Of a stretch of DNA of 37,906 nt, positions 4,248 through 37,906 are shown one piece after another. The DNA is taken from positions 1 to 37,906 of the forward strand of contig CAYUBD010000002.1 of the NCBI GenBank assembly GCA_964442905.1, given 5' to 3'. The position numbers and the translations under genes were made by a program. The notes under the pieces were generated by a model, which did not search any database, had not been told where the DNA came from, and saw nothing but the letters and a program-made list of their open reading frames with translations. Position 1 is the first letter of the stretch; each line of letters begins with the position of its first letter. The DNA comes from an uncultured archaeon. Its GTDB lineage: Archaea > Aenigmatarchaeota > Aenigmatarchaeia > QMZP01 > JAFGSV01.

Positions 4248-4256
4248 CTTATCCTT
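4245..4256 (-). promoter_or_regulatory. Stop/start coupling junction (AAGGA TAA G ATG) between gene 2 and gene 3
   Basis: The minus strand reads AAA AAA GGA TAA g ATG TTG AGC. The TAA ends at 4249 and the ATG begins at 4247. A weak AGGA lies 4 nt upstream of the ATG. This is consistent with translational coupling. Confidence 0.5.
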
Positions 4257-6249: not shown

Positions 6250-6256
6250 ATTCCTT

Positions 6257-6262: not shown

Positions 6263-6280
6263 CGGATTGTTTAGTGAAAA

Positions 6281-9200
6281 CTACATGCTTTTCATCCTCG
6301 TTTTGACGGATTCCATGTAGCTCTCTGCCATGGTGAACAGACCCTGCTTGAGCTTGTCAAGAGCAAGGTTGAGTTCGACCTCGACGTCCCCCGTGTCTGT
6401 CCCCTTGGTCTTCAACGCCTCAAACTGCTTCTTCAGCGCGTCAGCGTCCTTGCTTATCTTCACGTATTTGTCGAGCTCTTCGGCAGTCAGCCTCTTGGTG
6501 TCGTGAAGCAGCGGCCTGAATGAAACGAACCACGGCTTACCGTTGTTGTACGCCGCATTCTGCATCAGGCCCGTACCCGTGACAAGCTTCGTAATCTTCG
6601 AGGCGTAGTCAGGACCATACTTGGTCTTGACCCTGTTTATGTCACCCTCATACTTCGACCTTAGCTGTATCTCCGTGGATATGTTTGCCCTGATTGCACC
6701 ACGGAAGTCCATAAGGACCTGCGATATCATGAATATGCCGATGCCCCACTTACGGAACTCCCTGCACGCCCTTTCAAGGACCACATAACCACCCTTGCCG
6801 CCGTACTTCGGCAGCAGCCTGTGGACCTCATCGAATATTATCATCATCCTCATCTCCCTTGCCTCCGGCAGCCTCATCTCGAACAGGCTCTCCACTGTCC
6901 TTCTCACGAAGGTGTCCATGTCCTTGTTCGGAAGCTTTTCAGTGACAAGGACTGTCATCTCACCCTTCCTTTCCATTATATCCTTCCATGGAGGAACGAA
7001 ATCTGATGACTCAACGACCATTATGTTGACCTTGAAACCTCTGGCGTCATCTGGCTTCATGCCGAACTGTGGGTACAGGTCAAGCATCGCCGAATCCTTG
7101 CATGCCCTCATGAATCCTGTCCACTGTGCAGTCGGGTCTATGACGACTATCGGAACGCCTCTCTTAAGGAGGTCTTCCGAACAGACCTGTGCAGACACGG
7201 ACTTGCCGGCGCCCGTTGAACCTGCTGCTATGCTGTGCGTGGTAAGGTCGTCAAGGGTCATGTACGCCTTCATATCCGTTTCCGCTATCTTACCAACGAG
7301 CAGCGACCTGTCTCCGGCCTTCGGCAGCTTGTTGACATCCATCGGGAATATGTATCTGGACTTGGACTTTTTCTTCTTCCTGAAGTCTGTGTAGAACCTC
7401 ATGCCGAAATAGTATCCAGGTATAATAGCGAACAGCAATGCGTACGTGATCCAGCTGCTGAACAGTGCCTGTAACATCTTGAGAGGCGGAGCTATGTACA
7501 GCACATCGAAAGAGTCTATTGCGAAGGCCTGCTTCCCACCGCTCCAGTAAGTGACATTTAACTCAAGTGAGTATCTTCCTATGGGCGTGTCCTCGGGCAC
7601 GTATATGCTCCTCTTGAACGTCCTGACGTTCTCCATTCCGAGTGTCTCCTGCTCCCTGAGCACTATCTTCTCTGTGTCCAGATGCCTCATCTCATATGTG
7701 ACGACTATGTCATCTATTTTGGATGTTTCTCCCATATTCAGCAGGGTTACCTCAAGGGAAAGGTTCGTTCCGGGTTCTACTGTCTTGGACAATGCCTTGA
7801 CCTTCACGTCAAGCAGCGGCTCCTTCGGCTTCTGAACCTTGACGGTTATCGGAGTTACATGCGTTATGTTTCTGCCTCTTATACTGGTTATTATGTCTCC
7901 CGTGTAGATGCCTTCCATGGTGCTCGGAAGCGTAAAGACCTTTATCTTGATGGTTCCGGTTGAACTGCCCCTTATGTCGATGCTCGGCTTCTCTATCATC
8001 ACGAGTTCCCATGCGTTGCCCTCGACTTTAACATCGGCAGTTATAGTTCCCGGAAGGTTGTTGTCTATGTCTATGCTGTGTATCTCATGCTCGCCTGGCC
8101 TGAGAGTCACGAATATCAGCCTTGAGTCTATCTTGACAGGTATCCTCGGTGCAGATGGCGCGGATATAGCTCCGGCTCCGCCACCTCCTCCTCCCCCGCC
8201 GCCTCTCTCGGGGGGTGGCTGAGGCTCGGCCGGCTCGCAGTCCTGCGGGCAGTTCGCATTGGATTCGCCGTAATCGGTTTCGCATTCATCGTTTCCGCAT
8301 ATGTATTCAGCGACAGCGTAACCGCCGTCAAGACTTGTCAGGAATGCCGATATGGTCTTATCATGGATGCTCACGTTAGCATTGGCCAGCCTCGTCCAGT
8401 CATCGCTGCAACCGACCCATGGTGTCCACGAGTCGCAATAGTATATACCAAGCAGATTTGTACTTGAAATTTCACTTTCATATGACGAGTAGTTGAATGT
8501 GATTGTCACGTTGTCAAATTCCAGGTCAACCGTCGTGTTTTCATCAACCGTTATGTTGTCATTCGCCTCGAATGTTCTCGCCTCGAACAGTCCTCTGGTG
8601 TTGTAGCCGACAAGGCCCATATCCTTTATCAGCCCGAACAGGAATGGGTCATGGACATGTGTCTGTATGTCTGCGCCACGCATGTCAATGGTCTCGTTCC
8701 ACACATTCATCAGTATGTTATATATGCCGGCATCTATGGTCCTGTTGTAGTAGCCCACGCCGTCTGTGCTGAAGTTGAAGTACCATTCGGCGTCCGTGTA
8801 GAAGAGGCTGAAGTCAACATCCAGTGGTGACTGTGCCGGCAGTTCTTCCTGATCATTAGCTATGCCATGGAAATATACCAGAAGTGAAACAAGGAATGAC
8901 TTCTGGCTGGTGTTGTAGTTGCCGGACATGTCGTAAGCAACAGCATCTATCACATAGGTACCCTTCTCTGAAGTGTTTGTGAACTGGCCGAGGAACGTAT
9001 ATGTGTCCCCGGACCTGCTCATGTAGTTCATGGTCAGATTCTCCGTGACGTTATGGTGTGTTACCGTGACCATGATTTTACTTGTATTGACACCACCAGC
9101 ATCGGTCACATACAGGTGTATGTCGGCAGTCGTGTTGGTGGATACCTTTGAGAAAACATCTATGACGATGTCCGGTGGTGTCGTGTCCTCATATATGACT

Positions 9201-15200: not shown

Positions 15201-18200
15201 AGGATGAATGATGTCAGACCGCTTACATCCAACGTGACATCGGTTCCGTCGGAAACCGAACGGTTCGAGTCAACAAGCACACCATTGACGGTGAGGTTGT
15301 AGTACAATGTGGTCCCGTTGCTGTTGTGGAATGTTATGTTGAAATAGTTCATGATGCCTGAGCCTTCTTCCGTTATCGTTTCGGTGTAGTTAAGGCCAGC
15401 ATCGCCAACGGACGCGTTGTGTATGAGTTCTATCGGCTGGAAAATTCCGGTTTCGTCAGTGAAGTCCGAATCGTCAGTGGTATTGAACTTGAAGTAAGCA
15501 AGGGGACCGTCGAGGTAATCCTGGCACATGAATGTTATGTCCATGTGTCCCGAGAAGTACTGCGGGAAGGTATTGGAGCACACGGGCGTACCGGTACTGG
15601 CGAGCGTCCTTCCATGGTATGCCTTAAGTGTCCACGAATCGGTGTCGAAGCTCTTCAGTATGGTTATGTTGTTGAAGTTCTGGTCCTGGTCATCTATGCA
15701 CATGTAGAAATCGTATTCCTCTCCCCACCCGCCTACGTAATGGTCTATTGCCGGATTGTAAAGGTCTGGTATATTTCCCAGGTAGAATGCGTTCGGCTTC
15801 AGCGTGACGTTGGTTTCATAATAATTTTCGCTTATCGTCTGCCTTGCATCATACCATCCTTTGGTGTACGAGCCCAGAGTCTGCCAGGAGCAGTTATACC
15901 AGCCACCGCCTTCCGTTTCATCCGTGCATGTGTACCAGCAGTAAGCCCCGATGCATGCATTTCTCTTGGTAGTTATGGTAAAGCTGTCCGCATTCAGTAC
16001 AGGGTAACCGCACTCTGTCACGTAGGTGCTTATGTTAACCCTTCCGCCCCTCTCGTATGATTCTCCGTCCGGTGCGACTATCTCCACGGCCATGTTGGAA
16101 TTAAGTATCCACGTCTCCACGGTCGAGTTCGTATCGAAATAATAGCTGTCATTGATTATACCTCCAAGCCAGTCATGTTCACCAACGACATAGAATGGTG
16201 TGTCCCCGCACTCGGGATTGAAGCTTATGTTAAGGTATCCGTTATCCGTGCTTAGGTCCCATCCGTCGTTGTAGTTGCTGCCGTTGTGTGTTGACCATAT
16301 CGTTCCGCTTCCTGATGGATCTACGGCCATGTCCCTGTCTGTATCCCATACGAGCAGACTGAAGTTTATCTCCTGCCCGCCGAATCTCCATACCTCGTTG
16401 CTCGGAGCCTCGTAGCCATCGACAACGATGATGGTAACGTTGTCCTTCTCTATCGTGAAGTTTATGGCCTGGGTCTGGTCGCTGTTTCCACACGCATCAT
16501 GGTCGCATTCGCTTTCGGTTGCAGTGAACCTGTATTCCCACACAACCTGCTGGTCCTGGAAAAGTGTCGGAACGTAAAGGGTCATGTTGACCGTGACATT
16601 TACCGGGGATGTCAGGACAGTGGTGTTCCTGGTGTCCCAGTCACCGGGTCCCTCACCGTATAGTCTTATCTGCAGGTTGACAGTGACATTGTCAAGGTCT
16701 TCATCAGTGACATTTACGTGGAAGCTCCACGTCTCTCCCCAGCCGCCTACGTCACCGCCCTGCTCTGAATACAATATCGGGTCTGAAAGCGCCGGGCTGG
16801 TAACTACATAGAAATGATCTGTGTAGTAGGCCGTTCCGTTGTAATAATAGTCTCTTGAGGCCGTTGATGTTGTGTTATACCATCTTGCACTGAGGATGGA
16901 AGTATTTATCTGGTAAAGGTATGTGCCGGTGCCATCTGCTATGGTGTCGTACGTATAGTTTTTCCCGCTCTCATGATTGAGTATAATTGTTATATTGCTG
17001 TATCCCAGCTGTTCGCAGTCATCATAATCGGGTGCGTGACCTGCTATGGTCACATTCTCTCCACGCTTGTAGAAGTACGGATCTAACGCCTCAAGTGTGT
17101 GGTTGAACTCCCCCATAATCAGTACTGTGAAGTTGTTTCCGCCAATCGTTACATTGGCATCCTTGTAGCACTGGTCGCTGTAGGTCCCGCCTTTCCAGTA
17201 CTGTGGTCCTACGGCATAATGCTGACACCAAGGATCGAACTCCAGTATCAGGTACCCCGAAGAGTTTGTAGTGTTCTCGTTGTAATCATGATATGTGTAG
17301 TTCTCACCGTCGGCAGTGACCCAGAATATCCCGTTAACACCTGAAACCACTGACATATTTTCCCGATCCGTGTCGTTTATCCTCACTATAAGCGTTGCGG
17401 TGTTCGTCAGCGCCCTGCTTACGTTCGTGTCATGGCCGTAAACATATGAGATGACGACGTCATCCTTCGTTATGTTGAGTCCGGTCTGGTTGCTGGTGTT
17501 GAACAGGTTAGTGCCGTCGTCTATCTCGAACAGATACCTCGTGTAATTGCTTATGTCTCCGCATGTGAAATCCGTGACCAGGATTGAGCAGTTGCCGACA
17601 CCACCGTAGACCGTTGTGTTGTCCTTCTTCAGCCAGGCCGAGCCGTTGTACACCCAGAGCCTGCATGACACGTTGTCATACTGCGTGTCGTTTATGAATA
17701 CAGTGTAGTTGAAGTCCTCGCCCCAGCCTCCGTCATCGTCGAATGCGACGCTGAATTCGGTAGCCGTTGGTGGTGTGTTGTTCAGGTATGTCCAGTTCAC
17801 CAGTATGCTGTTGTTTTCGTTCCAAAGAGTGCCGTTGTCCGAGAACATCCTGATGCTCCAGTTCCCGCCTATGTGGAAAGATGTATTCCATGAGCAGTTG
17901 TACCAGCCGTCGCCCTCGGCATTGAGCTGCTGGCAGTCTTCCCAGTCATCCTCAGGGGAGCCGAACTGCAATATCACGCTCGTTGCATTCACCAGGCCTT
18001 CATTCGAACAGTCCGTGGTTATGTTGAACCTTACCGTTAATATGTCTCCGACCTGTACGATTGTTCCCTCCGCGGGCTGTTCGATGTTATTGTAAAGCTG
18101 GCCGAATATATACGCATAAACATAAGATCCAGGGAATTCCGTATCCTCGTAGCAGGCATCACCATAAGCACCTGCCCACCAGCCCTGAAGGCCGACAGAG

Positions 18201-21200
18201 AAGCTGCAGTTCGGGTCGAAGTTGTGGTAGAAGCTTCCATTGGAAATGGTATTTGTTATGTTGTATATTATGTAGGTTCCTAGGTCTACAGGATTCGCTG
18301 TTGTCGAAACGCGGAATGCGGACTGCACGTTGCTGCCTACATTAACTTTAGACCGGTCTGTATCGTTTAGGTAAGCTCCTAACAATTTGTAGTCATTGCC
18401 ACTCCTGTTTATACTCGGCTGTAATTTCTCTCCCAAGTAGTGGATAACCAATGTATCATCCCTGAAGATAGTGAACGTGTTATTTGTTTCATTACTGTAG
18501 CCCCATAAATAGCTGGTAGAATTGAATTTATAGTCCTTTGTAGAGCTGGTCTGGCCCTGAAGGTCCGTGCATGTGAAGTTGTGGCTCCTGAACCTTATCC
18601 AGGTTCCAGAAGTGGAAGTGATGTTGGTCGAATTCCTGACCTCGAAAATGTCCGTTACATTTATGAGAAGCGAGACGTTCATCTTGTCGCCGTCGGCATT
18701 CCCCGACCGGACGTTGAACTCCCAGCTCTCTCCCCATCCGCCGTTACCGGCACCTCCTTCCCAAAGAGTGGATATAGCATCCGGAGTTGTCTGGAACTGG
18801 GGTACGGATGCCAGGTAGTATGCATCTTCCTTAAAAGTGTTTGTGCTGTTGTAATAAGACCTGTTGACCTCGCTTGTGATGTTGTGCCAGCCGTAAGACC
18901 AAAGGTCATCCTCAGGTACATTAGCTGGCACTGTGCAGTTATAGTTTCCATCTCCTTCATCATCAGCGAAGCCTGCCTGCGGGCACCTATATTGAGTGCC
19001 TCCTGTCGTGGACCAGAATACCACATCCGAATTGTTGAGAAGCCTGCATTCATCGCTTACGTTGGCCCTTATAAGGATAGGTTCTGTACCTCTCACATAG
19101 GGACCATAATCAGGTAAGGTTATGTTCACGATTAGCGGCTCTGTGACAACAGTCCAGTTGTAAACGTATGAGTATTTGTCCTGATACCATGGATTATCTA
19201 TGAGCCTTGCTCTCCAATAGTGTGGTCCAATCATGAAACTGCAGTTGATTCCATCCGGGTCAAGATCATTGGGGTGCTGTGTAGTAAGCACCCCACTTAC
19301 ATCTGTCTGCCCCGGTGGCAGCGGGGGTGTGGGTATCCTTATCCAGTTGTCATTTGAATCGGTCTTTGTGAACCAGAAGTCACCGAACCTGCTGTTTCCT
19401 ACATTGCCGCCTTTATCCGTATCCAAAAATTTCACCTGCCATGTGAACGCGCCGGAAGCACCCCTCGTGACAATACTGTCATTCCCTGCCACAAGCTCTC
19501 CCTGAACGTCGTCCTTTGTAAGGGTTATGTTGTTTTCCTGTGTTTCTGCATCATAGAAGCTGTCGGTAACGTTGAACTTGTAGTATATGGGATTGTTCTG
19601 CAGGTCGTTGCCGTCGAAATAGCTGACGAGCGTGAATGATACCATGGTCTCCTCTTTTGCATGAACGGAATCGTTGGAATCCGCAAGCACCCATGCGCCC
19701 GTAATGTTCAGCCAAAGATAGACAGTCAGCGTGTCGTTGTCCTCGTCCGTGGTATTGACACTGAACGTGAAATTCTCTCCCCAGCCGAAGGGAACGCCTG
19801 TCGGGTCACCCTGAGACGTGACGTTGGGATACTCTATTAGGGGAAGGGTCTCTATGAAGAAGGATGTGGAAGAGGTGTAAGGAACTGTTATTTCGTTCGG
19901 ATTGTAGTACTGCCTGGACGTGTTGACTATGGTGTCATATCCCATTGTGGGCATGCCTGTGCTGTTGAACGTGCAGTTGTATACGCCGTCGCCTATGTGG
20001 AACGTACCATTGCAGAGGAAGTACTGACCCGTGTTCAGGCTGTGCATCCTTATGGTTATGTTCTCTTCGGTGAGGTCTGTCATGTTGTTCCCGCATGTGT
20101 CGTTGACCTTCACCTGTATGGTGATGTTCTGGCCGCTTCCCCTGAGAAGCCTCTGGCCATTGGGATAAAGCAGATAGTTGGTGAGTGAGCCATTTATATT
20201 TACAGTGAAGTTTTCTGTTGCATTCCTGTCATAATACATGTCCGTTGCTTCAGCGTACCACTTCCTGACACCCGGGGCATACGAGCAGTTAGGCGCGAAG
20301 TTGTATTCGGCGTATCCGCTCGAATTCGTGAGTGTAAGGTTGCTCCAGTCCCAGACGCCTTCACTGAGTTCCGTCCAGAATGTTATATTCATAGTCTCGG
20401 GCTTGCTATGGTTGTCCGTGTCGTTTATCCTGAGTATGAATGTCGTGTATTCGCTGGCATCAGTCGTTATGTTTACCTTTGACCCGTTACCGATTATCTC
20501 AGTTATGGTTATGTTTGCCGGTTCAAGCACAGGACCTGATATTATGCTTGTGTTGTAGGTGTTGTTCTGCTCTATGTCCTCCACGGTGAAGAAGAAATAG
20601 TTGTCCGTGTCATAGCCCGAGCTGAAGTCAAGGTCGGTTTTTCTGAAGTCATCAAGCACTATGTAGCAGGTGCCGTCCCCTTCCGGAAGCGTCATCGTGC
20701 CGTTCATCGTCCAGTTCTGCTGTCCGTCGGTGCTTATCCAGAGCGTGCAGTTGGTCGTGTCGTTTTCAGGGTCAGATATCTGCATGGAGTAGTTGAACCA
20801 CCTCGTCCATCCATCCGAAGACGGCGCCACGGAGGGCGTAGTCTGGTTCTGAGGCTCTATGTTCTCGAGCCAGAACCAGTCCGCGAATTCGGTCTCGTTC
20901 TGGAAGTAAAGGTACTGGAAGCTGTCCGAGGACGTTATGTTTATCGTCCAGTTGCCCTCGTCGTGGTCCGTCGAATCCCAGGTGCAGTTGTAGAACGCCT
21001 GTCCCTCGTAGTTTAGGGGTGTGCACGTATCGTAATCTGTCGGTGAGAACAGTTCCACCTGTTTCGTCAGCTGAAGCTGGTATCCGGGGGATATGTCATC
21101 TATGGTCTCGTCACAGTCCCCGAGTATGCTGAAGTTCAGAAGTACCTGGTCCGTGACGTTGTAATCGGAGTGCTGCACCGGCTCATGAAGATAATTCATG

Positions 21201-24200
21201 AGCTGCCCCTTGACTGTTATTACCTGGTCACCAGTGTCGTTGTAGGCGTAGCAGACGTCGTTTGTTATCGAGAGGTTCCATGACTGCTCACCCGTGGTGT
21301 AGTTGCAGTCCGGATTGAACCTGTACAGGAACTGGCCGCTGGCGTTGGAGGAGGTGAAGTTCACCATATTGACGGTGTTGGTGTCATTCGTGATGAAATA
21401 GCTTGCGTTGGCAGCCGGATCGGAAACCGGTCTCAGCCTGTTCTCGTCGTAGGCGTACACTACGAGGTTCCTGAAATCGGAGCCAACCCTGCTCACGGTC
21501 GCGTCGGAGCCGCTCAGCACGGAAAGCGAGAGGTTGTCCTTGTATAACGTCACGTTGAAAATCTCTGTCTCGTTGTTCTTGCCCCACATGTTTGTGGCGT
21601 TGAACTTCAGGTACACGACGCCGTTCGTCTGGCTGTTGACATAATCATCGCAGCTGAAGTTCACATAGTATTCCAGCGTTGTCCACGTGGTGCTTTCAAC
21701 ATCGTACTGGGTATCCACATCATAGAACGGTCCTGCTTGGTCGTAGGCCTTCCAGAGAGTTATGTTGTCATAGTTTTCTCCTTCCCTGTCCTGGAATGAA
21801 ACGTTGAAGTTGAACTCATGGCCCCATCCTTCCCTGTCAGTGTCATTGACGACTGTCACTAGTTCTGGCCTTCTGACCAGCCTGAAAGCGTTGTCGATAC
21901 CGTCTTCGTCAGGATAGAAGTATTGTCCTATGCCGGCGTTTTGCTTTGTAGCGTTCATGCTCACGTTATACCACCCAAGAGGCAGCGTGGCAGTTGACCA
22001 CGTGCAGTTGTATGTGCCGTTGTTCATATCGTACACGTTTGCCCCTTCACAGAGGAATTCAACACCACCCGTGGCATACTTGACATGGAATGTTACAGAA
22101 GCGCCCGTTATATAGCCGCAGGAAGGATCAAGATCCTGCACAGTCGTATAGAGTTTGACTTCTTCCTCGTCCTTTATTATGTAAAGCTGCGGGGGGTTCA
22201 ACGTCGTGTTGAGTATGGACTCTACCGTCACGTTGTAGTAATCCGAGTATGCGTCGTAGTATCTTTCAGAACCGTTTACCTGGCCTCTCCACAACTGCCT
22301 CATCACATCGTAGCTGCAGTCGGGATTGAAGTTGGCAAACATGTAACCGGCACCGGTCACCACCATCTGGTAATAGAAGCTGAAATTTTCCAAGTCCTTT
22401 GTGACATAGAAAGCCCCCGGCACGTCGAGGAATCCGCTCAATGGTGGGCTTCCCGTGTAGTTGTCGTAGACCCTCAGCCTGAAATAGGTCTGGTTGCCGA
22501 AGGTCCTGTTGACATAGCTGTCGCTTCCGTTAAGGACAGTGAAGGTCAGGTTCCTCTTCGTCACGTTGAACGTGAAATTCCCAGGGTCCGCAAGGCTGTG
22601 GTTCCTGCCGTACTTGTCAGTCGCATTGACCATCCAGTAATAAGTGCCTATGTCGTTCCATGATGTGTATGTGTGTGTGAACGTCATAGTGTCGTTGTTG
22701 CAGTCAACGCAGTACTGGGGAGAACTGGATACCTGATACCATGGGCCGGAAGAGGACGCGTTCGAATGCCAGACCCTGACCGTGACATTGTCGTCGTCGT
22801 CCGTTACATTAACGTAGAACGTTATCCTCGATTTTGCTGCATTGGTTCCCCATTGTATGGATTTCTTGTCATTATATGCACCTGAAAGTACCGGGTCAAC
22901 CTCGTGGAAGAATGATTGTCTCAGTTCTATGTCTGGATTGTAGAGTGTCTTGTTAGAGCTTATCGTAACGTTGTACCATCCTGATGGGTTGCTTGATATG
23001 TTCCACGTGCAGTTGTATATGCCTCCGGTCCAGTTGAATACCGGCGTGCAGTATTCCTCGAATCCATTGTGGCTTATCTTCAGGCTGACATTGGCGTCGC
23101 TTATGTTGAACTCGCAGTCATTGCCGGTAACCTCATCGTTGACAGCGAATGTGACAGTTACGTTATCATCGGTGAGATAGATGTTGCTGTAATCTGTTCC
23201 GTTCGGTGTTATGAGCGTGTTGTTGAGCCATCCTATGACAGTGAACGTGTAGTTGACAGAATGGTTGTCCTTGTAGCATTTATTGCCTGTGCTTCCGCCG
23301 TACCACAGCTGGGTTCCTACATCGTGTGTGCAGTTGGGGGTAAAGAAGTAGTTGAGGTAGCTGTCGCTGTCCGTGGTGTTCTTTGTTCCGGAGTCGAAAT
23401 CGGACCCGTTATAGGTTACCCGGATAGTCCCGTTTATGCCGGATGAAACGTTATCCCCGCTGTCCGTGTCATACATCCAGAGTCTCAGATGGATTATTTC
23501 GGTCCTGTTAACCTCCGTGGAATTACCATAACCACCGTATCCTATGTCGACATCGTCCTTCTCTACTGTGAAGTTGAATGAAGGCCTGTCCGTAGTGTTA
23601 TGCGGGTCCGTGGCATTGAACTTGAAGTATCTGTATTGTCCTGTATCTGTTATGTTTTCGCATGTGAAGTTCTTGTAGAAGAACTGCATCTCACTTTCTG
23701 CAAGGCATTCCACGCATGTCTGGTTCTCTATCCATGTCCAGTTGATGTCTTCAGGCGAAAGCCAGAACTGGATGGTCACGTTCTCGGCATCTATATCTGT
23801 CACGTTCACAGTAAATGTGAAGTTCTCACCCCATCCACCACCGCTCTCGAAAATCACGCTCTCGTTCTTCAGGATTGGTGGTGAGAACTCATAAGGTATT
23901 ATCTTGAATGCGTGATATTTCGTCCTGCTGCCGTTGTTGAAGAAGCTTACGTTGCTGGCATTCATCTCTATGTTGAACCATCCGAAGCCGTCGCCTTCTA
24001 TCTGATCACCTGTCTGGCCATAGTTCCAGGTGCAGTTGTACGTGCCGTTGCCCTGATTGGTTATCGTTGATGTGCACCAGTACCTGAAGATTGGGTTGGC
24101 ATCGTTTATTATGGTGAAGTTTACGACAGAGACGTTTATGTATTCATCCATGCATTCACTGAGCACGTCACCGGATATGTTCAGGACGTTCTCTGCCGGG

Positions 24201-27200
24201 AAGATGCTGTATTCATATTCCGTGCCATTGGGCCATGTCACGTTCGGGTAAAGCTGACCGTTTACTGTCAGGTTGTACATTTCAGAGTTTGCGGCGAAGT
24301 AGCACTGCTCGGTCTTTATGTATGCAAACCACACCTGTTCCCCTTCGTCGTATGTGCATGCCGGATCGAAATCGTAGTTTATATGCCCTGTAGAGTTGGT
24401 CCTGTTGTAACCGTCATAGTTGTAGTCGCTGCCGTTCACAGTCACGTTGAAGTAAACTATCGGTAAGTCCTGCCCGGTGGTGTAGTACGCAGGCTGATTA
24501 TTGTTCGTGTCGTTGAGGTAAAGTATGAACCTTGAGAAATAGTCACCACCGACACTGTCATTCCTGCTGACATTGCTGTCGTTACCCAGTACATGTATGA
24601 ATTCGAGCGTATCCCTCGTGACCGTGAAGGTGCCTACCGGGGTCTGGGATTTCCCCTTGTCGTAGATGTCCACAGCATTGAACTTGAACCACCACGGTCC
24701 CCTGTCGTCACATGTGTAAGTCTCGTTGAAGTATATCATTTTGGTGTCTGAACTGAGTGTCACGTTCTGGCAGTTTGAATCATCATAAGATACGAAGTTG
24801 TCGTCAGAGATGTTAAGGCAGACGGTTACGTTGGTGTAGTGGCTCACATTTACGCTGAAATCGAATACATCTCCCCACCCGCCGCTGTCGGGAGTGACGT
24901 CCTCATCCTGAAGTGCTACCGGTGCCACGACGAAAATCCCGTAGTTGGTATCGCTGTCATTGTTGTGATAGTCCTTGTAAGAGAACATTGTGATGTTATA
25001 GTATCCTGAAGGTGCCGCTGAAGAGTTCCATACGCATTCATAGTAGTTACCGGTCGTATTGGTAACGAATGCAGCCGGAGACGGGCAGTAGAACGTAGAG
25101 CCGCTGCCTGTCGAGTTTATCATGAACCTGATGCTCGCATTCGCAAGGTCGTTGCTGCAGTCGTCGACAATAGTCCCGTTTAATGTCACGTTCTCTGACT
25201 GGTCGTAGTTCTGAAGTTCTGTCGGATTTGTCAGCGTGCTTACGACATCCCCGAATATCGTTATGGGGAAGTTTTCTGTCTCATAATCTATGTAGCATGG
25301 TGATGATATGTTGACCTTCCAGTTCCTCTTCCCTGGAACGTAAGAGCATGAAGCATTGAAATCATAATAGTAATGCGTCGTGTTGTTTATTTCGTTCACT
25401 GTCTGCCAGTCATCGGTATCCTTTTCTATCCTCGTGAAGACCTCTGTTGCATTGTTCAGTGCCACTGTGGTCTGGTTCTTTATGGTATCCCATATCTGGA
25501 AGGCGAGTTGTATTTCATGATATGTATTCAAATCTGACCTGTTTATCGCGGTGTCGTTTCCTCCAGTGACGTTTATCGTTATGTTCTCCTTCATGACTTC
25601 GAACTGCTCTGTGAGATTGTATGAGAAGCCTGCGGAGTCGTCGGCCATGAACATGACGTCCCAGTCGCCTATCTCGCCGCATGTGAAGTTCCTTGAGAAC
25701 TCTATGGGCTGTGTCCTGTTGCAGTCCGTGCAGACCGAGTAGTTGTAGAGCTGCCATGCCCCTCCGGTGTATGTGGAGTTGAGGTACATCGTCACGTTGA
25801 CCGTGTTATTGTCGTCATCGCTCACGTTCAGGGTGAAGTTGAACGGAGACTGGCCCCAGCATCCTGATGTGCCGGGCTCTATCCCTATCGCAGTGAGGTC
25901 TGGTATGCTGGCGAGGAAGAATGCGTTCTCAAGGAAGTAGGTGCCGTTCCAGTAGTCGTCTATATAGCTTCCTCCCGTGTATGCCAGCATGGTTACGTTG
26001 TACCATCCGAGTGGTGCTGAGCCGTCCGGGTTCCAGTTGTAGGTGTAGTAGTTTCCTGTCGTTGATCCCACCACCAGGGTATCGGAGTATGCACCGCTTT
26101 CGGCCGTGAACGAAACCGGGAAGTTGGTTATGCTTGACTTGTAGTCGGAGCAGTCGTCTGTGGATGTGCCGTTGAGTGTTATGGTGTAATTGGCTGACGG
26201 GCCCAGATCTGCTCTCGTGTAGTTCCTGGTAGTGTCAGGCGTTATCATGTCAGGGTGCAATGAGCCCATGAGCCAGAACGGTATGGCGTTGTACGGGTCA
26301 GGTTCCGTTATGTTGTCCTTGTAGCATGTTGCTGACAGGATGCCTCCCTTCCAGTAGTTCTGGCCGAGGTGGAATGTTCCTGTGGAGCCGGACCAGCCCT
26401 TGCACCAGTGGGTGGTGTCGTTGATCATCTCGTATATTATGTAGCCGGTGGAGTTGACCGGAGTAACGGGATAGTAGTTTTCATAGGTTTCATTGTTACC
26501 GGTCTTGGATACGCCTATGAAGGTCTCCCTGTAGTTGAGGGCATTGGGCACTGTCTGGTTGTCCGTGTCGTTGGCGAGGAGGGTGAAGTTGTATGGCTGC
26601 GACCTGTTCACGGTGATGTTCCAGGACGGGGTTATGTTGAAGACGTCGACGTCGTCCTGCTCTATGTTGTATATGTACTCGCTGGTGTTCAGGCTTCCGT
26701 CCGAGTTATTGGCACTGAAAAGATACTTCCATTCGCCTATGTCACCGCAGACATAGTCGTATGTCATGTTGACCTGTGTCCACGGAAGGCAGTCGACACA
26801 AAGGTATGTATCCACCAGGCTGTATGCGGCTGCGCCCTTCTTGTGATAAAGGTCTGTCGTGACATTCCTCCCGAACCTGTCCCTTACCATGACAGAGAAG
26901 TTCCATGGCTCACCCCAGCCTCCGAGCACATCCGGTTGGGTATCTATGGTCTCATTTTCTATCAACGGGAGATACTTGAAGACCCTAACCTTTGTGAATA
27001 GTTCCTGGGTCTCATTGAAAAGTTTGCCGTAATTCCACGTGTAGTTTATCATGTTAACGGCAACGCTGCTCTGAGGGGAATGCGTTGCATCAGCATGGCT
27101 GTTCAGGCTTATGGTCTGCGTTGTTCCCGTGAATGATTCCCATTCACCAACACTGTAATTCGACCATATCTCATCCTGGAAATCATCGAATTCGTGGTTC

Positions 27201-30200: not shown

Positions 30201-33200
30201 AGCGAGAACGCGTTCTCCTTGGTGTAGGTATCGTTGTTGTAGAATGATTTGTATGACAGCATTGTTATGTTGTAAGCGCCTGAAAGCGAGCCCCAGGAAG
30301 ACCAGTTGCATGTGTACACGTTTCCTGTATCATTCATTACCCATCCCGTGGCGTTGGGGCAGTAACCTGAGCTTGTGCCGTTTACTATGAACCTCACATT
30401 AGCGCCTGATATGGGATTTCCGCAGGAGTCCGTTATATTGCCTGTGATTGTTACGTTTGTCCCGGCATCGAAAACCTCTCCGTTGGGCTCTGATATCTGG
30501 TTGTTCAGGTATCCCAGTATGATGAGTTCGAATATGTCCGTTTCATTGTCCTTGTAGCAGGGCTGATCGCTTATGTTCATCTTCCACGAACTCGTGTGGG
30601 GTGTATAGTTGCATGTAGCATTGAAGTCATGTGCATATATGCCTGAACCGGGTGTGACCACAGTCCCGTTATCCCAGTCCGTGCTGTTTTCCATGACATA
30701 CAGGATGACCTCCGGCTGTGTGGTATTGGCCTGGGCATCAAAGTCATAGACGTATGATGACAGCGTCACAAGCGAGGATATGTTGACCGTGCCTCCGTCA
30801 CCGGAAAGGTGTGTGATGTTCACTGTGTCTTTCGTAATCGTGTGGCTGTTTTCCTGTGAGCTGGCGTTGTTGTCGTGCGTGTCAGTGGAGTTGAAGAAGA
30901 ACTGCCATGTAGTGAGGTTGCTGGAATCACCTGCGGTGCACGCATACATTTTCTGGAAACTGACAGTCGTGTTGTCGCAGTCCGTGCACTGGTCATTTGT
31001 CTGGAATTCCCAGCCGGATGTGACGGTAGAATTCAGGTAGAAGTTTACAGTGACCGTATCGTTGTCTTCATCTGTAATGTTAATCGTGTAGTTGTATGTC
31101 CTGTTCCAGCCTCCGCTGCTGGGTATGACTGCCGGATACTGCAGGATCGGAGCAGATGAAAGGAAGAAATAGCTGTAGTCCGTATCATGGTTGTAATAGC
31201 TCCTGTTGGTATACACGGTTGCGTTGTAGTCTCCCACGAGCATTCCTGTTGTCGAGTATGTGCAGTTGTACCATCCGTATCCCTCTTCATTTATGGATGC
31301 ACACTGGTAATTCTGTCCTGTTTCATGTGTCAGGTTGAAGTATATTTCGCTGCTGCTGTACTGGAGCCCTGTTACGTTTTCTCCGCACTCGTCTTCCACG
31401 TGCACCCTGAGGAATATGTCTTCCTGTCCTACCGTGTAGTTGGTATTGCCGTCTGGATTCGTGAGATTTGCGTCAATATCGCCCCATATGTAAACCGTGA
31501 ACTCCTGTGACTCGTTGTCCGTGTAGCACGTGTCGCCGCTGACATTGAACTTCCAGTTCCTGACTCCCGGTTCGTATGCACAGCCGGGATTGAACGTGTT
31601 ATAGTAGAAGTTCGTTGTATTCAGAACAGGTGTCTCCTCGTTCCAGGAACTGCCAGAAGTCTCGGCCCATGAATGAACGTTCGAGGTGCTTATGCCTGTT
31701 ATTGTCTCGTCGAGTATAGTGTCATTTATCATAACCGAGAGATTATGTCTGTATCCCTCTTTGGTGTCGGACCTGTTTATATCCGCTCCGTCGCCATCAT
31801 AAAGATTTATCGTTATGTTCTCCTTCATGACTTCGAACTGCTCTGTGAGATTGTATGAGAAGCCTGCGGAGTCGTCGGCCATGAACATGACGTCCCAGTC
31901 GCCTATCTCGCCGCATGTGAAGTTCCTTGAGAACTCTATGGGCTGTGTCCTGTTGCAGTCCGTGCAGACCGAGTAGTTGTAGAGCTGCCATGCCCCTCCG
32001 GTGTATGTGGAGTTGAGGTACATCGTCACGTTGACCGTGTTATTGTCGTCATCGCTCACGTTCAGGGTGAAGTTGAACGGAGACTGGCCCCAGCATCCTG
32101 ATGTGCCGGGCTCTATCCCTATCGCAGTGAGGTCTGGTATGCTGGCGAGGAAGAATGCGTTCTCAAGGAAGTAGGTGCCGTTCCAGTAGTCGTCTATATA
32201 GCTTCCTCCCGTGTATGCCAGCATGGTTACGTTGTACCATCCGAGTGGTGCTGAGCCGTCCGGGTTCCAGTTGTAGGTGTAGTAGTTTCCTGTCGTTGAT
32301 CCCACCACCAGGGTATCGGAGTATGCACCGCTTTCGGCCGTGAACGAAACCGGGAAGTTGGTTATGCTTGACTTGTAGTCGGAGCAGTCGTCTGTGGATG
32401 TGCCGTTGAGTGTTATGGTGTAATTGGCTGACGGGCCCAGATCTGCTCTCGTGTAGTTCCTGGTAGTGTCAGGCGTTATCATGTCAGGGTGCAATGAGCC
32501 CATGAGCCAGAACGGTATGGCGTTGTACGGGTCAGGTTCCGTTATGTTGTCCTTGTAGCATGTTGCTGACAGGATGCCTCCCTTCCAGTAGTTCTGGCCG
32601 AGGTGGAATGTTCCTGTGGAGCCGGACCAGCCCTTGCACCAGTGGGTGGTGTCGTTGATCATCTCGTATATTATGTAGCCGGTGGAGTTGACCGGAGTAA
32701 CGGGATAGTAGTTTTCATAGGTTTCATTGTTACCGGTCTTGGATACGCCTATGAAGGTCTCCCTGTAGTTGAGGGCATTGGGCACTGTCTGGTTGTCCGT
32801 GTCGTTGGCGAGGAGGGTGAAGTTGTATGGCTGCGACCTGTTCACGGTGATGTTCCAGGACGGGGTTATGTTGAAGACGTCGACGTCGTCCTGCTCAATC
32901 AGATAATCGTCGTCTGTTACATAGTCCCCGTTTCCTGTTGTCGTCTCTGTTGTATAGTTCCCGTCCTCAATGACAGTCATGTTGAACTTGTATTCCCATA
33001 TTCCCTTGTCGTTGCAATCGTGTGTATATGAGAAATTTATCTGGGTCCAGTCAGTGCAGGGAGAACATGTGAAAGAGCTTATACTCTGATAGCTTCCGAG
33101 AGGCGGCTTAAGCCAAAGGCTGACGTTTACATCCCTTGAGAACCTATCCATCGTTTCTACCGAGAAGTTCCAGTCCTCACCCCAGCCGCCTGTCTCCCTT

Positions 33201-36200
33201 GTCATATTGGCGTTCCTTACGAGCGGGTTGAACTGGTACTGCTTTACTTTTGCAAACAGTTCCTGGGTCTCTTCGAACAGGTTCCCGTAATCCCATGTGT
33301 AGTTGATCTGGTTTATGGTAACATTTCCAATTGGATTCTGCGTGCCGTCTGCATGCGCGTAAAGGTTTATCGGCCTTACGTTGCTTACAAAACCGGCTGA
33401 TGGATAGTATAACACCGAATGGGAACCGCTGGTATCCCCTGCGCTGTGGTTATACCATGTGTATCTCTCCGTACTGTCATCGTCAACCATGTAGGCATAG
33501 CCTTCGCCTATCGTGAGGTTTGTCGCTGAGAAATCATAAAGTATGCTGAGGTTTATGTTCGAAAGCCTCTCATAAGGCTGTGACGGGTCCGTGAAAACCG
33601 GGTTGACGGTCGTGCTGCACTCCTCGCCTGAACATGTGTAGTAAACGTCGTCACTGTAGCTTGACTGGTTGGTGGTATCCCGTGTTGCCGTGACGTAGAA
33701 CATCTGCTTCTCGGTCTGGGTGCAGTTTACCGTGACATTATGCCTTATGATGCTTCTGCTGCCGAGTCCTGACACGTTCCATCTCACGGTGTTTGAAACG
33801 GCATTATAAACTCCGTCGTCATAAACTGCCAGTATCTCACATGCATGTGGCACTGAAAGGTTGACGCTCCAGTTGTTCGCTGCAATATCTCCTATGTTCG
33901 TTATCTTCAGGCTGAAGTTGTAGCTGTGATTTGCCTGGACCGTCTTGGGCTCCGGCCACGGGAATTCTGATCTCTGATTGGCCTCGAGAAGGAACTCGAG
34001 GTGGGATTCGCCTGTGTAGTTGGCTGTCTGGAAATCATGCTCTTCATACTCCGAAAGTTCCTTGTCGCTGTCGTAAGTGAGGTTCCATAAGGCATAACCG
34101 GTCTCGCCGCTTCCGGGCGGTGCCTTTATCTGGTAAGTGAGAAGCGCGTATTGGTTTTCGTCTATGGTGCCAAGCACCCATTCCAGTATGTTCTCTTCAA
34201 GGTCCACGCTGGATGATACGAGTTCCACATCGCCGCTTAGTCCGGGGTTCGCCGGAGTCCATCCTGATTTTATGTTATCCTGAATTGCCACGCCGCTTAT
34301 CTGCGCACAGCCCTTGTTGTGTATCGTTATGGCTCCCTCGAATACCTTGCTGCTCGACACGTATACCGGTGTCTCCCTTATGACCTCGAGCACGCCGTGG
34401 TTGTCGTTTTCTATGTTTATGCTCGTATTTTCACTGTACTGCTTGTGCGGAAGCTGGTAAACCACTGAAACGTTTATGGTTCCGTCTTCCGTTGATAATG
34501 GAGACGTCACATTGAACTCTGCTGCGTATGAAGTTATCCCGGTGGCGCTTATGGTCCTCTGGGAAGGCTGGTATGACCATCCAGATGGCACCTCAAGCGT
34601 GACGTTGTACTCAACATCCTCATCATACTGGTTGGATAAAACCACGTAAACGTCGTCTGTATCCTCCGGGCATATGAAGGGGTTGTACCATGTCTCATAG
34701 CTTATGTTCTCCTTTGTCAGGCTTTCATTAATCACGCTGACGTTACCGTCGTAAGAAAGATACGCCATTATGGTATACGTCCCGTCCCAGGAAACGATGT
34801 CTATGTTCTCTATGCTCTCCGTAGAGAATGAATCCGCTCCTATTGAAGGCTGTATGTATGTGGAATTGACCACGGTGCCGCTTTCATCAGTTATGTTCAC
34901 CCATAGATCCGGATTTATTGTGTGATTATGGGAATTCAGTACGGTCACATTGACATTAAGCGAGGTGTCATAGCCGTCAAGGCTGTATGTCTCGGTTGAT
35001 GATATGTAGGGCATTATTCCGAGCACATACGCTTTACTTTCAAGATAGCTCGTCATGTTGGCAGAGTTCACGGTTATGGTGCTGTCGCCTATGTTCTCGA
35101 ACTTGAGTATGCACAGTCCGCTGCCGTTGGGAGTGACATGCTGTCCTGGAATTCTTAGCTCTCTGTAGAGGTTCCCATTTATGATTTCGTAGTTGAGTAT
35201 CTCGTTGAAGGATGTGGAATTGTATGCGTAAATCCTGAAAGCGCTTTCGGAACCTGAATCCATGCTGATTGAGAATGTCTCAAGCCTGTAGTCTCCGGAC
35301 ATGCAGGGGAAGGTGAGGTCTGAAGAATCGCCTGAAGCTACTGGTATGGGGAATGGGTTCGTAGACTGTGACCAGTTATACTTGTAGTTCGTGGTGATGA
35401 AATCCACAGTGTCTTCAGTCCCGTAAGAGTTGTTTGCCTTTATGGTGACATTGAACGTGCCTTCTGTCGTGCCGTTCACGGTCCATGTTACGGTCTCGGG
35501 TGAACCAAGGTTAACGGTTCCAAGATACCTGACCCTGTCGTCGACGTCCCATTCTGGAGGGACATCGAGCGTGGCGTACACGTCGCTCGAATCTCCGATG
35601 TACGTTGCGATTGTAGCTTTTATAGTGAAGTTGTCATACTGAAGAGTCTCATCCGGATGGTAGTAGAAATCAATGGAGGGATTGGCCTGGCAGTTAGAAA
35701 GGTCCAGCGTTATCGTGAGGTTCTCTGATTCATTGTAGTTGTACGCATCATCCGTGGCGGATATCCTTGCGCGCCATATCTGCTGGCCGTCGACATAGTC
35801 GCATGATGGAAGGAAGAGTATCTCCGCCTTTCCGTCCGGGTCAGTCTGGGCGGTGCCTATCTCCTTGCTCCCACCGCTATAACCACTGTCAAGCACCTCG
35901 AATACCACATCTGCAGGCGTGCTGTGATTGTAGGTCTGGGCTATCAGGTCATAAACCCTTACTGAAAGGTTGACGGATACGGAAGTCGATGGATTGGTAT
36001 CGTTCCCTGAATGGTATTCAACAGAGACGTTGTCCTTCGTTATCGTGAACGTGTCGAAGCCGCCCGTTGCTTCAGAGGATAGCTCGTACTTGTAGAACCA
36101 GTTGCCCACATCATCGTAACTGAAGTTGTTGTACCAGTATATTGTCTCGTTTATGCAGTCCGGATAAGCGCAGGATACAATGGTCTGGTTTACGCATGTG

Positions 36201-37906: not shown

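What the first reader, a model, noticed from the sequence alone, without database searches (positions are those of the whole stretch)
6281..37906. An ORF of 31.6 kb or more (at least 10,541 codons) that is still incomplete, placing it among the largest prokaryotic genes
What the sequence shows: one uninterrupted frame covers 83% of the window and is open at the right edge.

Established knowledge: prokaryotic genes over 30 kb are rare. Halomucin and the giant adhesins are the usual comparators.

Inference:
- At about 100 aa per beta-sandwich domain, this is on the order of 100 domains.
- If extended at a typical few nm per Ig-like domain, the fibre would be hundreds of nm long, comparable to the cell size of small archaea. 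This is a rough estimate, not a measurement.
Basis: partly seen in the sequence, partly recalled or inferred. Interest (0 to 1): 0.75.

Follow-up and report, generated by a model that had tools for sequence, protein, structure and literature searches.

The report
Giant DPANN surface protein with ATPase
The 31.6-kb open reading frame is real. It encodes the longest member seen so far (at least 10,541 amino acids, start still missing) of the already described 'SPEARE' family of giant membrane-anchored surface proteins, which tiny symbiotic DPANN archaea are thought to use to contact their host cells.

Summary
On the minus strand, one frame is open from the right edge (37906) to a TAG at 6281-6283, giving 10,541 sense codons with the 5' end missing.

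It is not an orphan. Its last ~620 residues form a conserved module of two beta-sandwich domains, one TM helix, a cytoplasmic HerA/VirB4-type P-loop ATPase and a coiled coil. This module aligns end to end with the C-terminus of the published Ca. Nanohaloarchaeum antarcticus SPEARE protein (34% identity, E 2e-117). It also matches hundreds of DPANN proteins, closest in Aenigmatarchaeota (83-86%).

The ~10,140 residues before the TM helix are extracellular:
- 625 N-glycosylation sequons against 184 expected;
- 158 cysteines;
- tandem ~100-residue Ig-like domains, including about 18 copies of a 335-residue three-domain super-repeat.

An independent Aenigmarchaeota protein of 4,735 aa is collinear with the C-terminal 45% at 69% identity.

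The published family maximum is 9,409 aa, so this is a record-length new member of a known kind.

The N-terminal half lacks independent support. A 1,094-nt near-identical internal repeat leaves some assembly risk.

Extra finding: a coiled-coil gene, a second ~2,000-aa anchored surface protein and often a MinD-type ATPase follow the gene across DPANN.

The parts
6281..37906 (-). Giant ORF: 10,541 sense codons plus the TAG stop (6281-6283). The 5' end runs off the right edge. At least 1.18 MDa, pI 4.2.
7487..37906 (-). Extracellular part (residues 1-10,140). It is rich in T/N/S/D/Y, carries 625 NxS/T sequons (184 +/- 12 expected) and 158 Cys, and consists of tandem ~100-residue Ig-like beta-sandwich domains.
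15530..26731 (-). Uninterrupted run of 11 copies of a ~335-residue three-domain (A-B-C) super-repeat (residues 3726-7459). Further copies lie at residues ~55-704 (35795-37744) and ~1527-2764 (29615-33328). Mean pairwise identity is about 25%, with conserved Cys and Trp.
25572..26665 (.). Copy 1 of the 1,094-nt near-identical direct repeat (1 mismatch). It forms the core of an old ~2,000-residue segmental duplication (residues ~880-2830 against ~2950-4900, otherwise 18-54% identical).
31806..32899 (.). Copy 2 of the 1,094-nt near-identical direct repeat.
7487..8143 (-). Two membrane-proximal NEW3/CARDB-like beta-sandwich domains. These form the first part of the family-wide conserved C-terminal module.
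7397..7477 (-). The single transmembrane helix (MLQALFSSWITYALLFAIIPGYYFGMR), followed by KKKKSKSR (positive inside).
6506..7333 (-). Cytoplasmic FtsK-HerA-superfamily P-loop ATPase domain. Walker A GSTGAGKS lies at 7199-7222 and Walker B IIFDEVH at 6821-6841. The catalytic residues are invariant in 66 homologues.
6284..6481 (-). C-terminal helical/coiled-coil tail of the module.
4249..6249 (-). Downstream gene of 666 aa: a cytoplasmic, highly charged coiled-coil protein with no TM helix and no P-loop. A GGAGGT lies 7 nt before its ATG. Its central ~200 residues are conserved directly downstream of the module gene in 62 of 67 related loci.
1..4247 (-). Second surface-protein gene. It has a signal peptide (MLSTRLLTGLLIVASLAAALA), encodes at least 1,415 aa and runs off the left edge. 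Its ATG lies 1 nt after the previous stop. Relatives are 1,994-2,103 aa with a C-terminal TM anchor.

Best explanation
The ORF encodes a SPEARE-family 'giant membrane-anchored extracellular protein' of an Aenigmatarchaeota (DPANN) archaeon.

Shown:
- A stalk of at least 10,140 residues, heavily N-glycosylated and Cys-rich, lies outside the cell. It is made of roughly 95 tandem Ig-like beta-sandwich domains.
- It is tethered by one TM helix to a cytoplasmic P-loop ATPase of the FtsK-HerA superfamily with intact catalytic motifs, and ends in a coiled coil.
- The gene heads a tightly packed operon with a cytoplasmic coiled-coil protein and a second large anchored surface protein.

Inferred:
- The missing N-terminus carries a Sec signal peptide, and perhaps only ~150-250 residues are missing.
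- The stalk reaches out a few hundred nm and binds the host cell surface.
- Like its HerA/VirB4/FtsK relatives, the ATPase works as a ring (hexamer). This would bundle several chains at the membrane and use ATP to move a macromolecule (DNA or protein effectors) across the symbiont membrane at the contact site. The conserved coiled-coil partner would help.

I put the family assignment and architecture at about 0.9. I put the translocation role of the ATPase at about 0.4.
For: Family and architecture:
- The module aligns end to end with ~725-aa DPANN proteins (46% identity).
- It aligns with the Ca. Nha. antarcticus SPEARE C-terminus taken from SI Fig. S18 of PMC6642349 (34% identity over 638 columns, E 2e-117).
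- It aligns with nanohaloarchaeal 7,878-aa proteins.
- 524 relatives were found in GTDB genomes, and the top 80 are nearly all DPANN.
- In about 70 of those 80 loci the ORF is open across the entire 10-kb upstream flank.
- Library members reach 7,878 aa, with the module nearly always C-terminal.
- P0276 (MCD6496517.1, Aenigmarchaeota) is collinear with residues 5793-10541 at 69% identity in one HSP.

Topology:
- There is a single hydrophobic segment.
- Sequons number 625 outside against 1 inside, and Cys 158 against 3.
- The AF2 model of the module has pLDDT 91.7.

ATPase:
- Pfam gives HerA_C, DUF87 and AAA_10.
- PDB sequence hits are to HerA.
- The top Foldseek hit is the HerA hexameric DNA translocase 4d2i (E 3e-13).
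- NCBIfam gives weak CedD, TraC, HerA and TraD hits.
- Walker A and B and further motifs are invariant in 66 sequences.

Ig-like stalk.

Operon and synteny.

Literature:
- The SPEARE protein of Nha. antarcticus is synthesised, and topology was predicted from sequence (PMC6642349).
- A reanalysis describes a Sec signal, about 75 Ig-like domains, a TM helix, a VirB4/TraG-like ATPase and a coiled coil (PMC10266531).
Against: - The 5' end is missing, so no signal peptide has been seen.
- No read data are available, and the 1,094-nt near-identical repeat could hide a mis-join.
- Residues 1-5,792 have no collinear orthologue in any other assembly I could reach. Only repeat-level matches of ~30% and one N-terminal fragment at 37-50% were found.
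- No laminin-G, protease or nuclease domain was detected by Pfam. Hamm et al. reported these for nanohaloarchaeal members, and Reva et al. dispute the protease and nuclease.
- Nothing shows what the ATPase translocates, or that it translocates anything.
- No T4SS components were found in the two downstream regions scanned.
- There is no expression evidence for this gene.
Confidence: 0.8

Rival explanations
1. Structural adhesin or sheath only. The giant protein is a passive, glycosylated surface fibre or S-layer-like coat. The cytoplasmic ATPase serves its own biogenesis, anchoring, clustering or turnover (for example positioning with the MinD-type ATPase and the coiled-coil protein) and does not translocate DNA or effectors.
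For: - The bulk of the protein is Ig-like repeats with no detectable enzymatic or pore-forming domain.
- A second anchored ~2,000-aa surface protein is a conserved neighbour in 32 of 50 loci with at least 9 kb downstream, and a MinD-type positioning ATPase in 24 of 50.
- No T4SS channel components were seen in the downstream genes scanned.
- There is a single TM helix per chain, which is a poor channel on its own.
Against: - The ATPase belongs to a superfamily whose characterised members pump DNA or protein substrates (FtsK, HerA, VirB4, TraG/VirD4; established knowledge). Its nearest solved structures are HerA translocases.
- ~725-aa versions keep the module and the coiled-coil partner without any long stalk. 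The conserved core is therefore the membrane ATPase, not the fibre.
Confidence: 0.3
2. Assembly artefact. The 31.6-kb frame is inflated or chimeric. For example, two paralogous giant genes or strains were joined through the 1,094-nt identical segment, or repeats were collapsed or expanded, so the true gene differs by thousands of codons.
For: - There is a 1,094-nt repeat with one mismatch, spaced exactly 6,234 nt, with sharp boundaries inside a 27-54% identical duplication.
- Contigs of the closest relatives all break inside this gene (L001, L002, L003, L004).
- Some MAGs carry two paralogues.
- The source contig was not found in the searched collections.
Against: - The two copies have different, diverged flanks on all four sides. 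A-R-B-R-C is therefore the only linear path that uses each flank once (inference).
- The frame is kept through both junctions.
- Codon usage and GC3 are uniform along the ORF.
- The C-terminal 4,750 residues are independently confirmed as one ORF in another assembly.
- ORFs of at least 3,950 aa are the norm in about 70 related loci.
- Complete members of 7,600-9,400 aa exist (PMC10266531).
Confidence: 0.1
3. Decaying or unexpressed gene. This would be a giant relic ORF no longer made into protein.
For: A related locus (L083) shows 218-, 670- and 406-aa ORF fragments directly before a 5,752-aa ORF, so such genes can break.
Against: - 10,541 codons carry no stop.
- ATPase motifs are invariant.
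- A strong excess of sequons is confined to the outside part.
- The gene sits in a tightly coupled operon with SD-like sites.
- A family member is detected by proteomics (PMC6642349).
Confidence: 0.03

Closest known systems
SPEARE proteins / 'giant membrane-anchored extracellular proteins' of Nanohaloarchaeota (Ca. Nanohaloarchaeum antarcticus NAR1_1133, 5,998 aa; Ca. Nanopetramus SG9 AOV94740.1, 8,553 aa; Ca. Nanohalococcus occultus SVXNc_0300, 9,409 aa)
   Same: The C-terminal module is homologous: two beta-sandwich domains, TM helix, P-loop ATPase and coiled coil (34% identity, E 2e-117). The topology is the same, the bulk is made of tandem Ig-like domains, and short (~655-730 aa) paralogues exist. 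The authors already noted homologues in Aenigmarchaeota, Woesearchaeota, Micrarchaeota and Altiarchaeales.
   Different: - The phylum differs, and this protein is not an acidic halophile protein.
- It is longer (at least 10,541 aa against a published maximum of 9,409 aa).
- The distal stalk is made of a lineage-specific 335-residue three-domain super-repeat. The WD40/PQQ propellers, laminin-G, beta-helix or 'toxin-like' regions described or seen in other members are absent.
- The immediate downstream gene is a P-loop-less coiled-coil protein. In nanohaloarchaea a VirB4/TraG-family ATPase is reported there (PMC10266531); I did not check this on those genomes.
HerA hexameric DNA translocase/helicase (e.g. 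Sulfolobus solfataricus HerA, PDB 4d2i) and HerA of Sir2-HerA / DUF4297-HerA defence systems
   Same: It is the best structural and sequence match for the cytoplasmic domain. It shares the RecA-like core with Walker A/B and the Pfam HerA_C/DUF87 signatures.
   Different: There is no N-terminal HAS barrel: only ~45 residues separate the TM helix from Walker A. No NurA or Sir2 partner was seen. The domain is membrane-tethered, and sequence similarity is only marginal (E about 1e-7).
VirB4 / TraG-VirD4 ATPases of type IV secretion and conjugation; CedB-type ATPases of the crenarchaeal Ced DNA-import system
   Same: They belong to the same FtsK-HerA superfamily. They are membrane-associated ATPases that energise transfer of macromolecules between cells. 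There are weak hits to AAA_10, TraC, TraD and CedD models, and this is the interpretation given in PMC10266531.
   Different: No VirB4 N-terminal domain (PF03135) was detected. No other T4SS or Ced components occur in the window or in the two downstream regions scanned. All hits fall far below the family cut-offs.
Giant repetitive adhesins and halomucin (e.g. Marinomonas MpIBP, 1.5 MDa; Haloquadratum halomucin, ~9,000 aa)
   Same: They share a very long extracellular chain of tandem Ig-like domains. MpIBP RII domains are among the fold matches (5irb, 4p99). The size class is comparable.
   Different: Those proteins have no cytoplasmic ATPase. MpIBP is secreted by T1SS and anchored in the outer membrane. 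Halomucin was not compared by sequence here.

Membership tests
SPEARE / giant membrane-anchored extracellular proteins of DPANN | Conserved C-terminal ('intracellular') region homologous to that of the type proteins. This is the region Hamm et al. used for the family tree. | tested here: met
   BLASTP against the Ca. Nha. antarcticus SPEARE C-terminus transcribed from SI Fig. S18 gives 34% identity over 638 columns, E 2e-117, end to end. Nanohaloarchaeal 7,878- and 7,852-aa proteins match at E about 1e-110.
SPEARE / giant membrane-anchored extracellular proteins of DPANN | Most of the length is extracytoplasmic, with one TM helix near the C-terminus and a cytoplasmic C-terminal region. | tested here: met
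   There is one hydrophobic segment at residues 10,144-10,170, followed by KKKKSKSR. Sequons number 625 before it and 1 after it; Cys number 158 against 3. The AF2 model shows a TM helix.
SPEARE / giant membrane-anchored extracellular proteins of DPANN | Cytoplasmic P-loop ATPase (VirB4/TraG/HerA-like) followed by a coiled coil. | tested here: met
   Pfam HerA_C, DUF87 and AAA_10. HerA is the top fold match. Walker A/B are invariant in 66 sequences. C-terminal helices span module residues 554-619.
SPEARE / giant membrane-anchored extracellular proteins of DPANN | The bulk is made of tandem Ig-like/adhesion domains. | tested here: met
   At least ~65 recognisable ~100-residue domains. There are weak Big_7, Big_1, DUF11, NEW3 and Filamin Pfam hits. 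The AF2 unit is all-beta and matches filamin, titin and MG domains.
SPEARE / giant membrane-anchored extracellular proteins of DPANN | N-terminal Sec signal peptide. | not testable with these tools
   The 5' end lies beyond the window, and the source contig was not found. A partial relative collinear with residues 201-698 does start with a signal peptide (P0278).
SPEARE / giant membrane-anchored extracellular proteins of DPANN | At least one laminin-G domain in the ectodomain (Hamm et al.'s description of the nanohaloarchaeal members). | tested here: not met
   No Laminin_G family appears at E <= 0.5 in any 1,000-residue slice or in the 5,000-residue scans. The test is Pfam only, and the N-terminal end is missing. 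This feature describes nanohaloarchaeal ectodomains, which vary between lineages. It is not what delimits the family.
SPEARE / giant membrane-anchored extracellular proteins of DPANN | [quoted passage not shown] | tested here: not met
   Neither was detected. Reva et al. (PMC10266531) also found neither in the type proteins and regard the name as a misnomer.
HerA helicase (sensu stricto) | An N-terminal HAS beta-barrel before the RecA-like core, and a NurA nuclease partner. | tested here: not met
   Only ~45 residues separate the TM helix (module 231-261) from Walker A (module 308-315). No NurA is present among the window genes or the downstream genes scanned. The domain is therefore HerA-like but not a HerA orthologue.
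Type IV secretion VirB4/TraG ATPase | The VirB4 N-terminal domain (PF03135) or TraG/VirD4 signature above threshold, together with neighbouring T4SS channel genes. | tested here: not met
   There are only sub-threshold AAA_10, TraC and TraD hits. Downstream genes in the window, L001 and L009 are a coiled-coil protein, a surface protein, a 222-aa unknown and MinD. Upstream regions were not available.

The most novel reading that the evidence does not exclude
The giant protein may be only the outermost part of a DPANN-wide, so far undescribed cell-contact machine. The conserved core would be the TM-anchored HerA-like ATPase module plus the cytoplasmic SMC-like coiled-coil protein encoded directly downstream. 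That gene is present in 62 of 67 related loci and also accompanies the ~725-aa versions. A MinD-type ATPase and a second ~2,000-aa TM-anchored surface protein, whose cytoplasmic tail carries the same SHOCT-like motif as the coiled-coil protein, often accompany them. In this reading the ATPase forms a hexameric ring that bundles six megadalton stalks into a conduit a few hundred nm long, through which DNA or proteins pass between symbiont and host. This would be a translocation apparatus distinct from T4SS and Ced.
Probability: 0.12. Interest if true: 0.8.

Novelty: new member of a known kind. Interest (0 to 1): 0.4.

Why it matters
DPANN archaea depend on physical contact with host cells, and the molecules that make that contact are barely known. 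SPEARE-type proteins are the main candidates. This window extends the family's size range beyond 10,500 residues, above the published 9,409-aa maximum and above halomucin. It does so in a non-halophilic phylum.

The related loci show that the giant architecture is the rule across DPANN: about 70 of 80 loci have at least 3,950 open codons.

The work also gives testable leads. A conserved coiled-coil partner gene and a recurring MinD-type ATPase accompany the membrane ATPase whatever the stalk length. This points to where the mechanism should be sought.

For genome annotation, it is a reminder that such genes routinely break short-read assemblies and are deposited as 'DUF87 domain-containing protein, partial'.

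Tried and rejected
- I looked for the source contig and the missing 5' end. An exact look-up of the 666-aa neighbour found nothing. A metagenome-contig scan with the first 400 residues also found nothing.
- The search for homologous proteins with the C-terminal 420 aa returned only proteins of 733 aa or less. This first suggested that the giant might be an aberrant fusion of a surface protein with a ~725-aa ATPase gene. I rejected that idea: the genome scan and the representative library showed giant ORFs with the same C-terminus to be the norm.
- Pfam on the ectodomain gave almost nothing, with no protease, nuclease, laminin-G, toxin or dockerin domains.
- The 666-aa coiled-coil protein has no PDB sequence match. 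It has only sub-threshold DUF7365 and SMC/Rad50 coiled-coil hits, so its function was not resolved.
- There are no tRNAs and no meaningful tandem DNA repeats.
- I considered the restriction-enzyme reading of the cytoplasmic domain (Hamm et al.). I rejected it in favour of a HerA/VirB4-like ATPase, in agreement with Reva et al..
- I considered a chimeric assembly. It is not excluded, but diverged flanks, a preserved frame, uniform codon usage and orthologue collinearity make it unlikely.
Full report
OBSERVATION

The window holds one minus-strand frame that is open from its right edge (base 37906) down to a TAG at 6283-6281. That is 10,541 sense codons. The ORF listing shows it only from the first in-window ATG at 37780, but the 42 codons above that ATG are also open.

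The other two minus-strand frames carry 507 and 770 stops, so chance is excluded. The sequence has no N's. GC, GC3 and codon usage are uniform along the ORF: each 1,000-codon block of the ectodomain correlates at r = 0.94-0.98 with the whole.

WHAT THE PROTEIN LOOKS LIKE

The product is at least 1.18 MDa, with pI 4.2, and is rich in T, N, S, D and Y. It has exactly one strongly hydrophobic segment, at residues 10,144-10,170, followed by KKKKSKSR.

Upstream of that segment there are 625 NxS/T sequons, where composition-preserving shuffles give 184 +/- 12. There are also 158 cysteines. The 366 residues downstream have 1 sequon and 3 cysteines. This is the signature of a type-I topology: a huge glycosylated, disulfide-bonded ectodomain and a small cytoplasmic domain.

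Pfam sees almost nothing in the ectodomain. It finds only weak Big_7, Big_1, DUF11, NEW3 and Filamin hits.

Internal comparison is more informative. It shows a ~335-residue unit made of three ~100-residue domains (A-B-C). The unit recurs about 18 times, including 11 consecutive copies at residues 3726-7459. Mean pairwise identity is about 25%, with conserved Cys and Trp. In total at least ~65 domains of ~100 residues are recognisable, covering 68% of the protein.

An AlphaFold2 model of one unit, built on the 14 internal copies, is all-beta. Its mean pLDDT is 78, with the first two domains near 90. Its best PDB fold matches are tandem Ig-like/FN3/macroglobulin domains: filamin rod, titin Z1Z2, alpha-2-macroglobulin MG domains and the MpIBP ice adhesin.

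The fibre length of a few hundred nm remains an inference from typical Ig-domain dimensions.

THE C-TERMINAL MODULE AND FAMILY ASSIGNMENT

The last 620 residues are the informative part. Pfam finds HerA_C, DUF87 and AAA_10. A PDB sequence search finds HerA proteins at E about 1e-7.

An AlphaFold2 model on 66 homologues has mean pLDDT 91.7. It shows two beta-sandwich domains, a long TM helix, an alpha/beta P-loop domain and C-terminal helices. Its top fold match is the HerA hexameric DNA translocase 4d2i (E 3e-13), followed by other HerA structures. Walker A (GSTGAGKS), Walker B (IIFDEVH) and many further positions are invariant in the 66 sequences.

The module aligns end to end with ~725-aa DPANN proteins that consist of a signal peptide, a short Cys-rich stretch and this same module.

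A scan of GTDB species genomes found 524 relatives. The best 80 are almost all DPANN: mostly Aenigmatarchaeota, plus Micrarchaeota, Nanoarchaeia, Woesearchaeota, Parvarchaeota, Altiarchaeota and Nanohalarchaeota. The closest module identities are 83%, 81% and 77%. In about 70 of the 80 loci the ORF is open across the whole 10-kb upstream flank, which is at least 3,950 codons.

An exhaustive search of 1.84 billion representatives gave 372 proteins at E <= 1e-30. Lengths in the top 150 reach 7,878 aa, and the module is nearly always at the C-terminus.

The literature identifies this family. Hamm et al. 2019 (PMC6642349) named the nanohaloarchaeal members SPEARE proteins (5,998 and 8,553 aa, plus 655- and 717-aa versions). 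They described the same topology and found the intracellular part to be the most conserved. They noted homologues in Aenigmarchaeota, Woesearchaeota, Micrarchaeota and Altiarchaeales, and detected the protein by proteomics.

I transcribed the C-terminus of their protein from SI Fig. S18 and compared it directly. The result is 34% identity over 638 columns, E 2e-117, covering both beta-sandwiches, the TM helix, the ATPase and the coiled coil.

Reva et al. 2023 (PMC10266531) re-analysed the family. They describe a Sec signal, about 75 Ig-like domains, a TM helix, a VirB4/TraG-like ATPase and a coiled coil. They reject the protease and nuclease assignments and report the longest member at 9,409 aa.

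My results agree with their reanalysis. I would describe the ATPase more cautiously, as a distinct family of the FtsK-HerA superfamily. Its nearest solved structures are HerA, and it has only sub-threshold hits to CedD, TraC, HerA and TraD models.

IS THE 31.6-KB FRAME A TRUE SINGLE GENE?

Evidence for:
- P0276 (MCD6496517.1, an Aenigmarchaeota MAG; 4,735 aa, itself truncated) aligns with residues 5793-10541 in a single HSP at 69% identity. This independently confirms the C-terminal 45%.
- P0132 from a 1.3-Mb Micrarchaeia contig is collinear with residues ~4830-10541 at about 30% identity.
- Composition is uniform along the ORF.

Evidence of risk:
- A 1,094-nt direct repeat with one mismatch lies at 25572-26665 and 31806-32899.
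- It is the sharply bounded core of an old ~2,000-residue segmental duplication that is otherwise 18-54% identical.

All four flanks of the repeat differ and the frame is kept. The order flank-repeat-middle-repeat-flank is therefore the only linear path, and recent gene conversion is the simplest reading. Only reads can settle this.

Residues 1-5,792 have no collinear orthologue in the data I could reach.

The first 700 residues do match P0278, an N-terminal fragment from a Nanoarchaeota MAG that starts with a signal peptide. Window residues 201-698 correspond to its residues 346-855 at 37% identity. If the two are collinear, only about 150-250 residues are missing here.

GENOMIC CONTEXT

The giant gene is followed after 31 nt by a 666-aa gene, with a GGAGGT 7 nt before its ATG. 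This gene encodes a highly charged cytoplasmic coiled-coil protein without a P-loop.

One nucleotide after its stop, a second gene starts. It encodes a signal-peptide surface protein of at least 1,415 aa that runs off the left edge.

Across the 80 related loci:
- The coiled-coil gene lies directly downstream on the same strand in 62 of 67 loci with at least 3 kb of downstream sequence.
- Among the 50 loci with at least 9 kb downstream, the second surface protein is present in 32 and an archaeal MinD-type ATPase in 24.

The cluster also accompanies the ~728-aa versions (L069, L075, L078). In relatives the second surface protein is 1,994-2,103 aa and has a C-terminal TM anchor. Its cytoplasmic tail carries a SHOCT-like motif, and the coiled-coil protein carries motifs of the same type.

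I did not find this cluster described in the papers I read. Reva et al. report a VirB4/TraG-family ATPase downstream in nanohaloarchaea, which I could not check.

MECHANISM

Shown: the architecture, topology, intact ATPase motifs, family membership and operon.

Inferred: the stalk binds host surfaces. The ATPase acts as a ring, as its relatives do, and therefore clusters several chains. It energises transfer of DNA or proteins at the contact site.

The main rival is a purely structural adhesin or sheath whose ATPase serves its own positioning or assembly. The absence of any detectable channel or T4SS component keeps this rival alive. Neither reading is testable with sequence alone.

VERDICT

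This is a new, record-length member of a known kind. It exceeds the published family maximum of 9,409 aa and halomucin. It is well short of the bacterial record of 85,804 aa. West-Roberts et al. already note a few archaeal proteins above 10,000 aa.

Interest is moderate (0.4).

Noticed in passing
window 4249-6249 (-); L001-L080: The 666-aa cytoplasmic coiled-coil protein encoded 31 nt downstream of the giant gene is a near-obligate neighbour of the SPEARE-type module. Its central ~200 residues are found directly downstream on the same strand in 62 of 67 related loci, including loci with only ~728-aa versions. It has no P-loop, no TM helix and no PDB match. It gives only a sub-threshold DUF7365 hit and carries three SHOCT-like motifs.
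   Followed up: partly
window 1-4247 (-); L001 10090-16401; L009 13511-19495: The second large surface protein (at least 1,415 aa here, cut by the left edge) is conserved over more than 1,280 residues at 32-60% identity in 32 of 50 loci. In relatives it is 1,994-2,103 aa. It has an N-terminal signal peptide, a C-terminal TM helix and a short cytoplasmic tail bearing a SHOCT-like motif similar to those in the coiled-coil protein.
   Followed up: partly
L001 17297-18070, L009 20342-21118 and 22 further loci: An archaeal MinD-type ATPase (TIGR01969, above its cut-off) recurs within 10 kb downstream of the module gene in 24 of 50 loci. It lies either after the second surface protein or between that protein and the coiled-coil gene. 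A conserved 222-aa protein of unknown function precedes it in 11 loci.
   Followed up: partly
window 25572-26665 and 31806-32899: A 1,094-nt direct repeat with one mismatch has sharp boundaries inside an old ~2,000-residue segmental duplication that is otherwise 18-54% identical. It is either recent gene conversion or a point where the assembly could be wrong.
   Followed up: partly
L035/L075, L023/L078, L062/L073, L043/L076: Single MAGs carry two paralogues of the module gene. Sometimes one is giant (at least 3,950 aa) and the other ~728 aa. This parallels the four versions reported for Ca. Nanopetramus SG9.
   Followed up: no
L081 3942-9024 (P0278): In a Nanoarchaeota MAG, a gene collinear with the window protein's N-terminal region starts with a signal peptide. 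Two translationally coupled genes of unknown function (250 and 437 aa) precede it. These may be upstream members of the operon that the window cannot show.
   Followed up: no
L083 6760-21221: A JGI contig shows ORF fragments of 218, 670 and 406 aa directly before a 5,752-aa ORF. The 406-aa piece is 50% identical to window residues ~230-570. This is either a giant gene broken by mutations or sequencing errors in that assembly.
   Followed up: no
one search compared: The word-indexed protein search returned only hits of 733 aa or less for the C-terminal module, although most relatives are giant. Giant proteins appear to be under-represented, or not reached by their C-termini, in that index. This could mislead similar analyses.
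   Followed up: no
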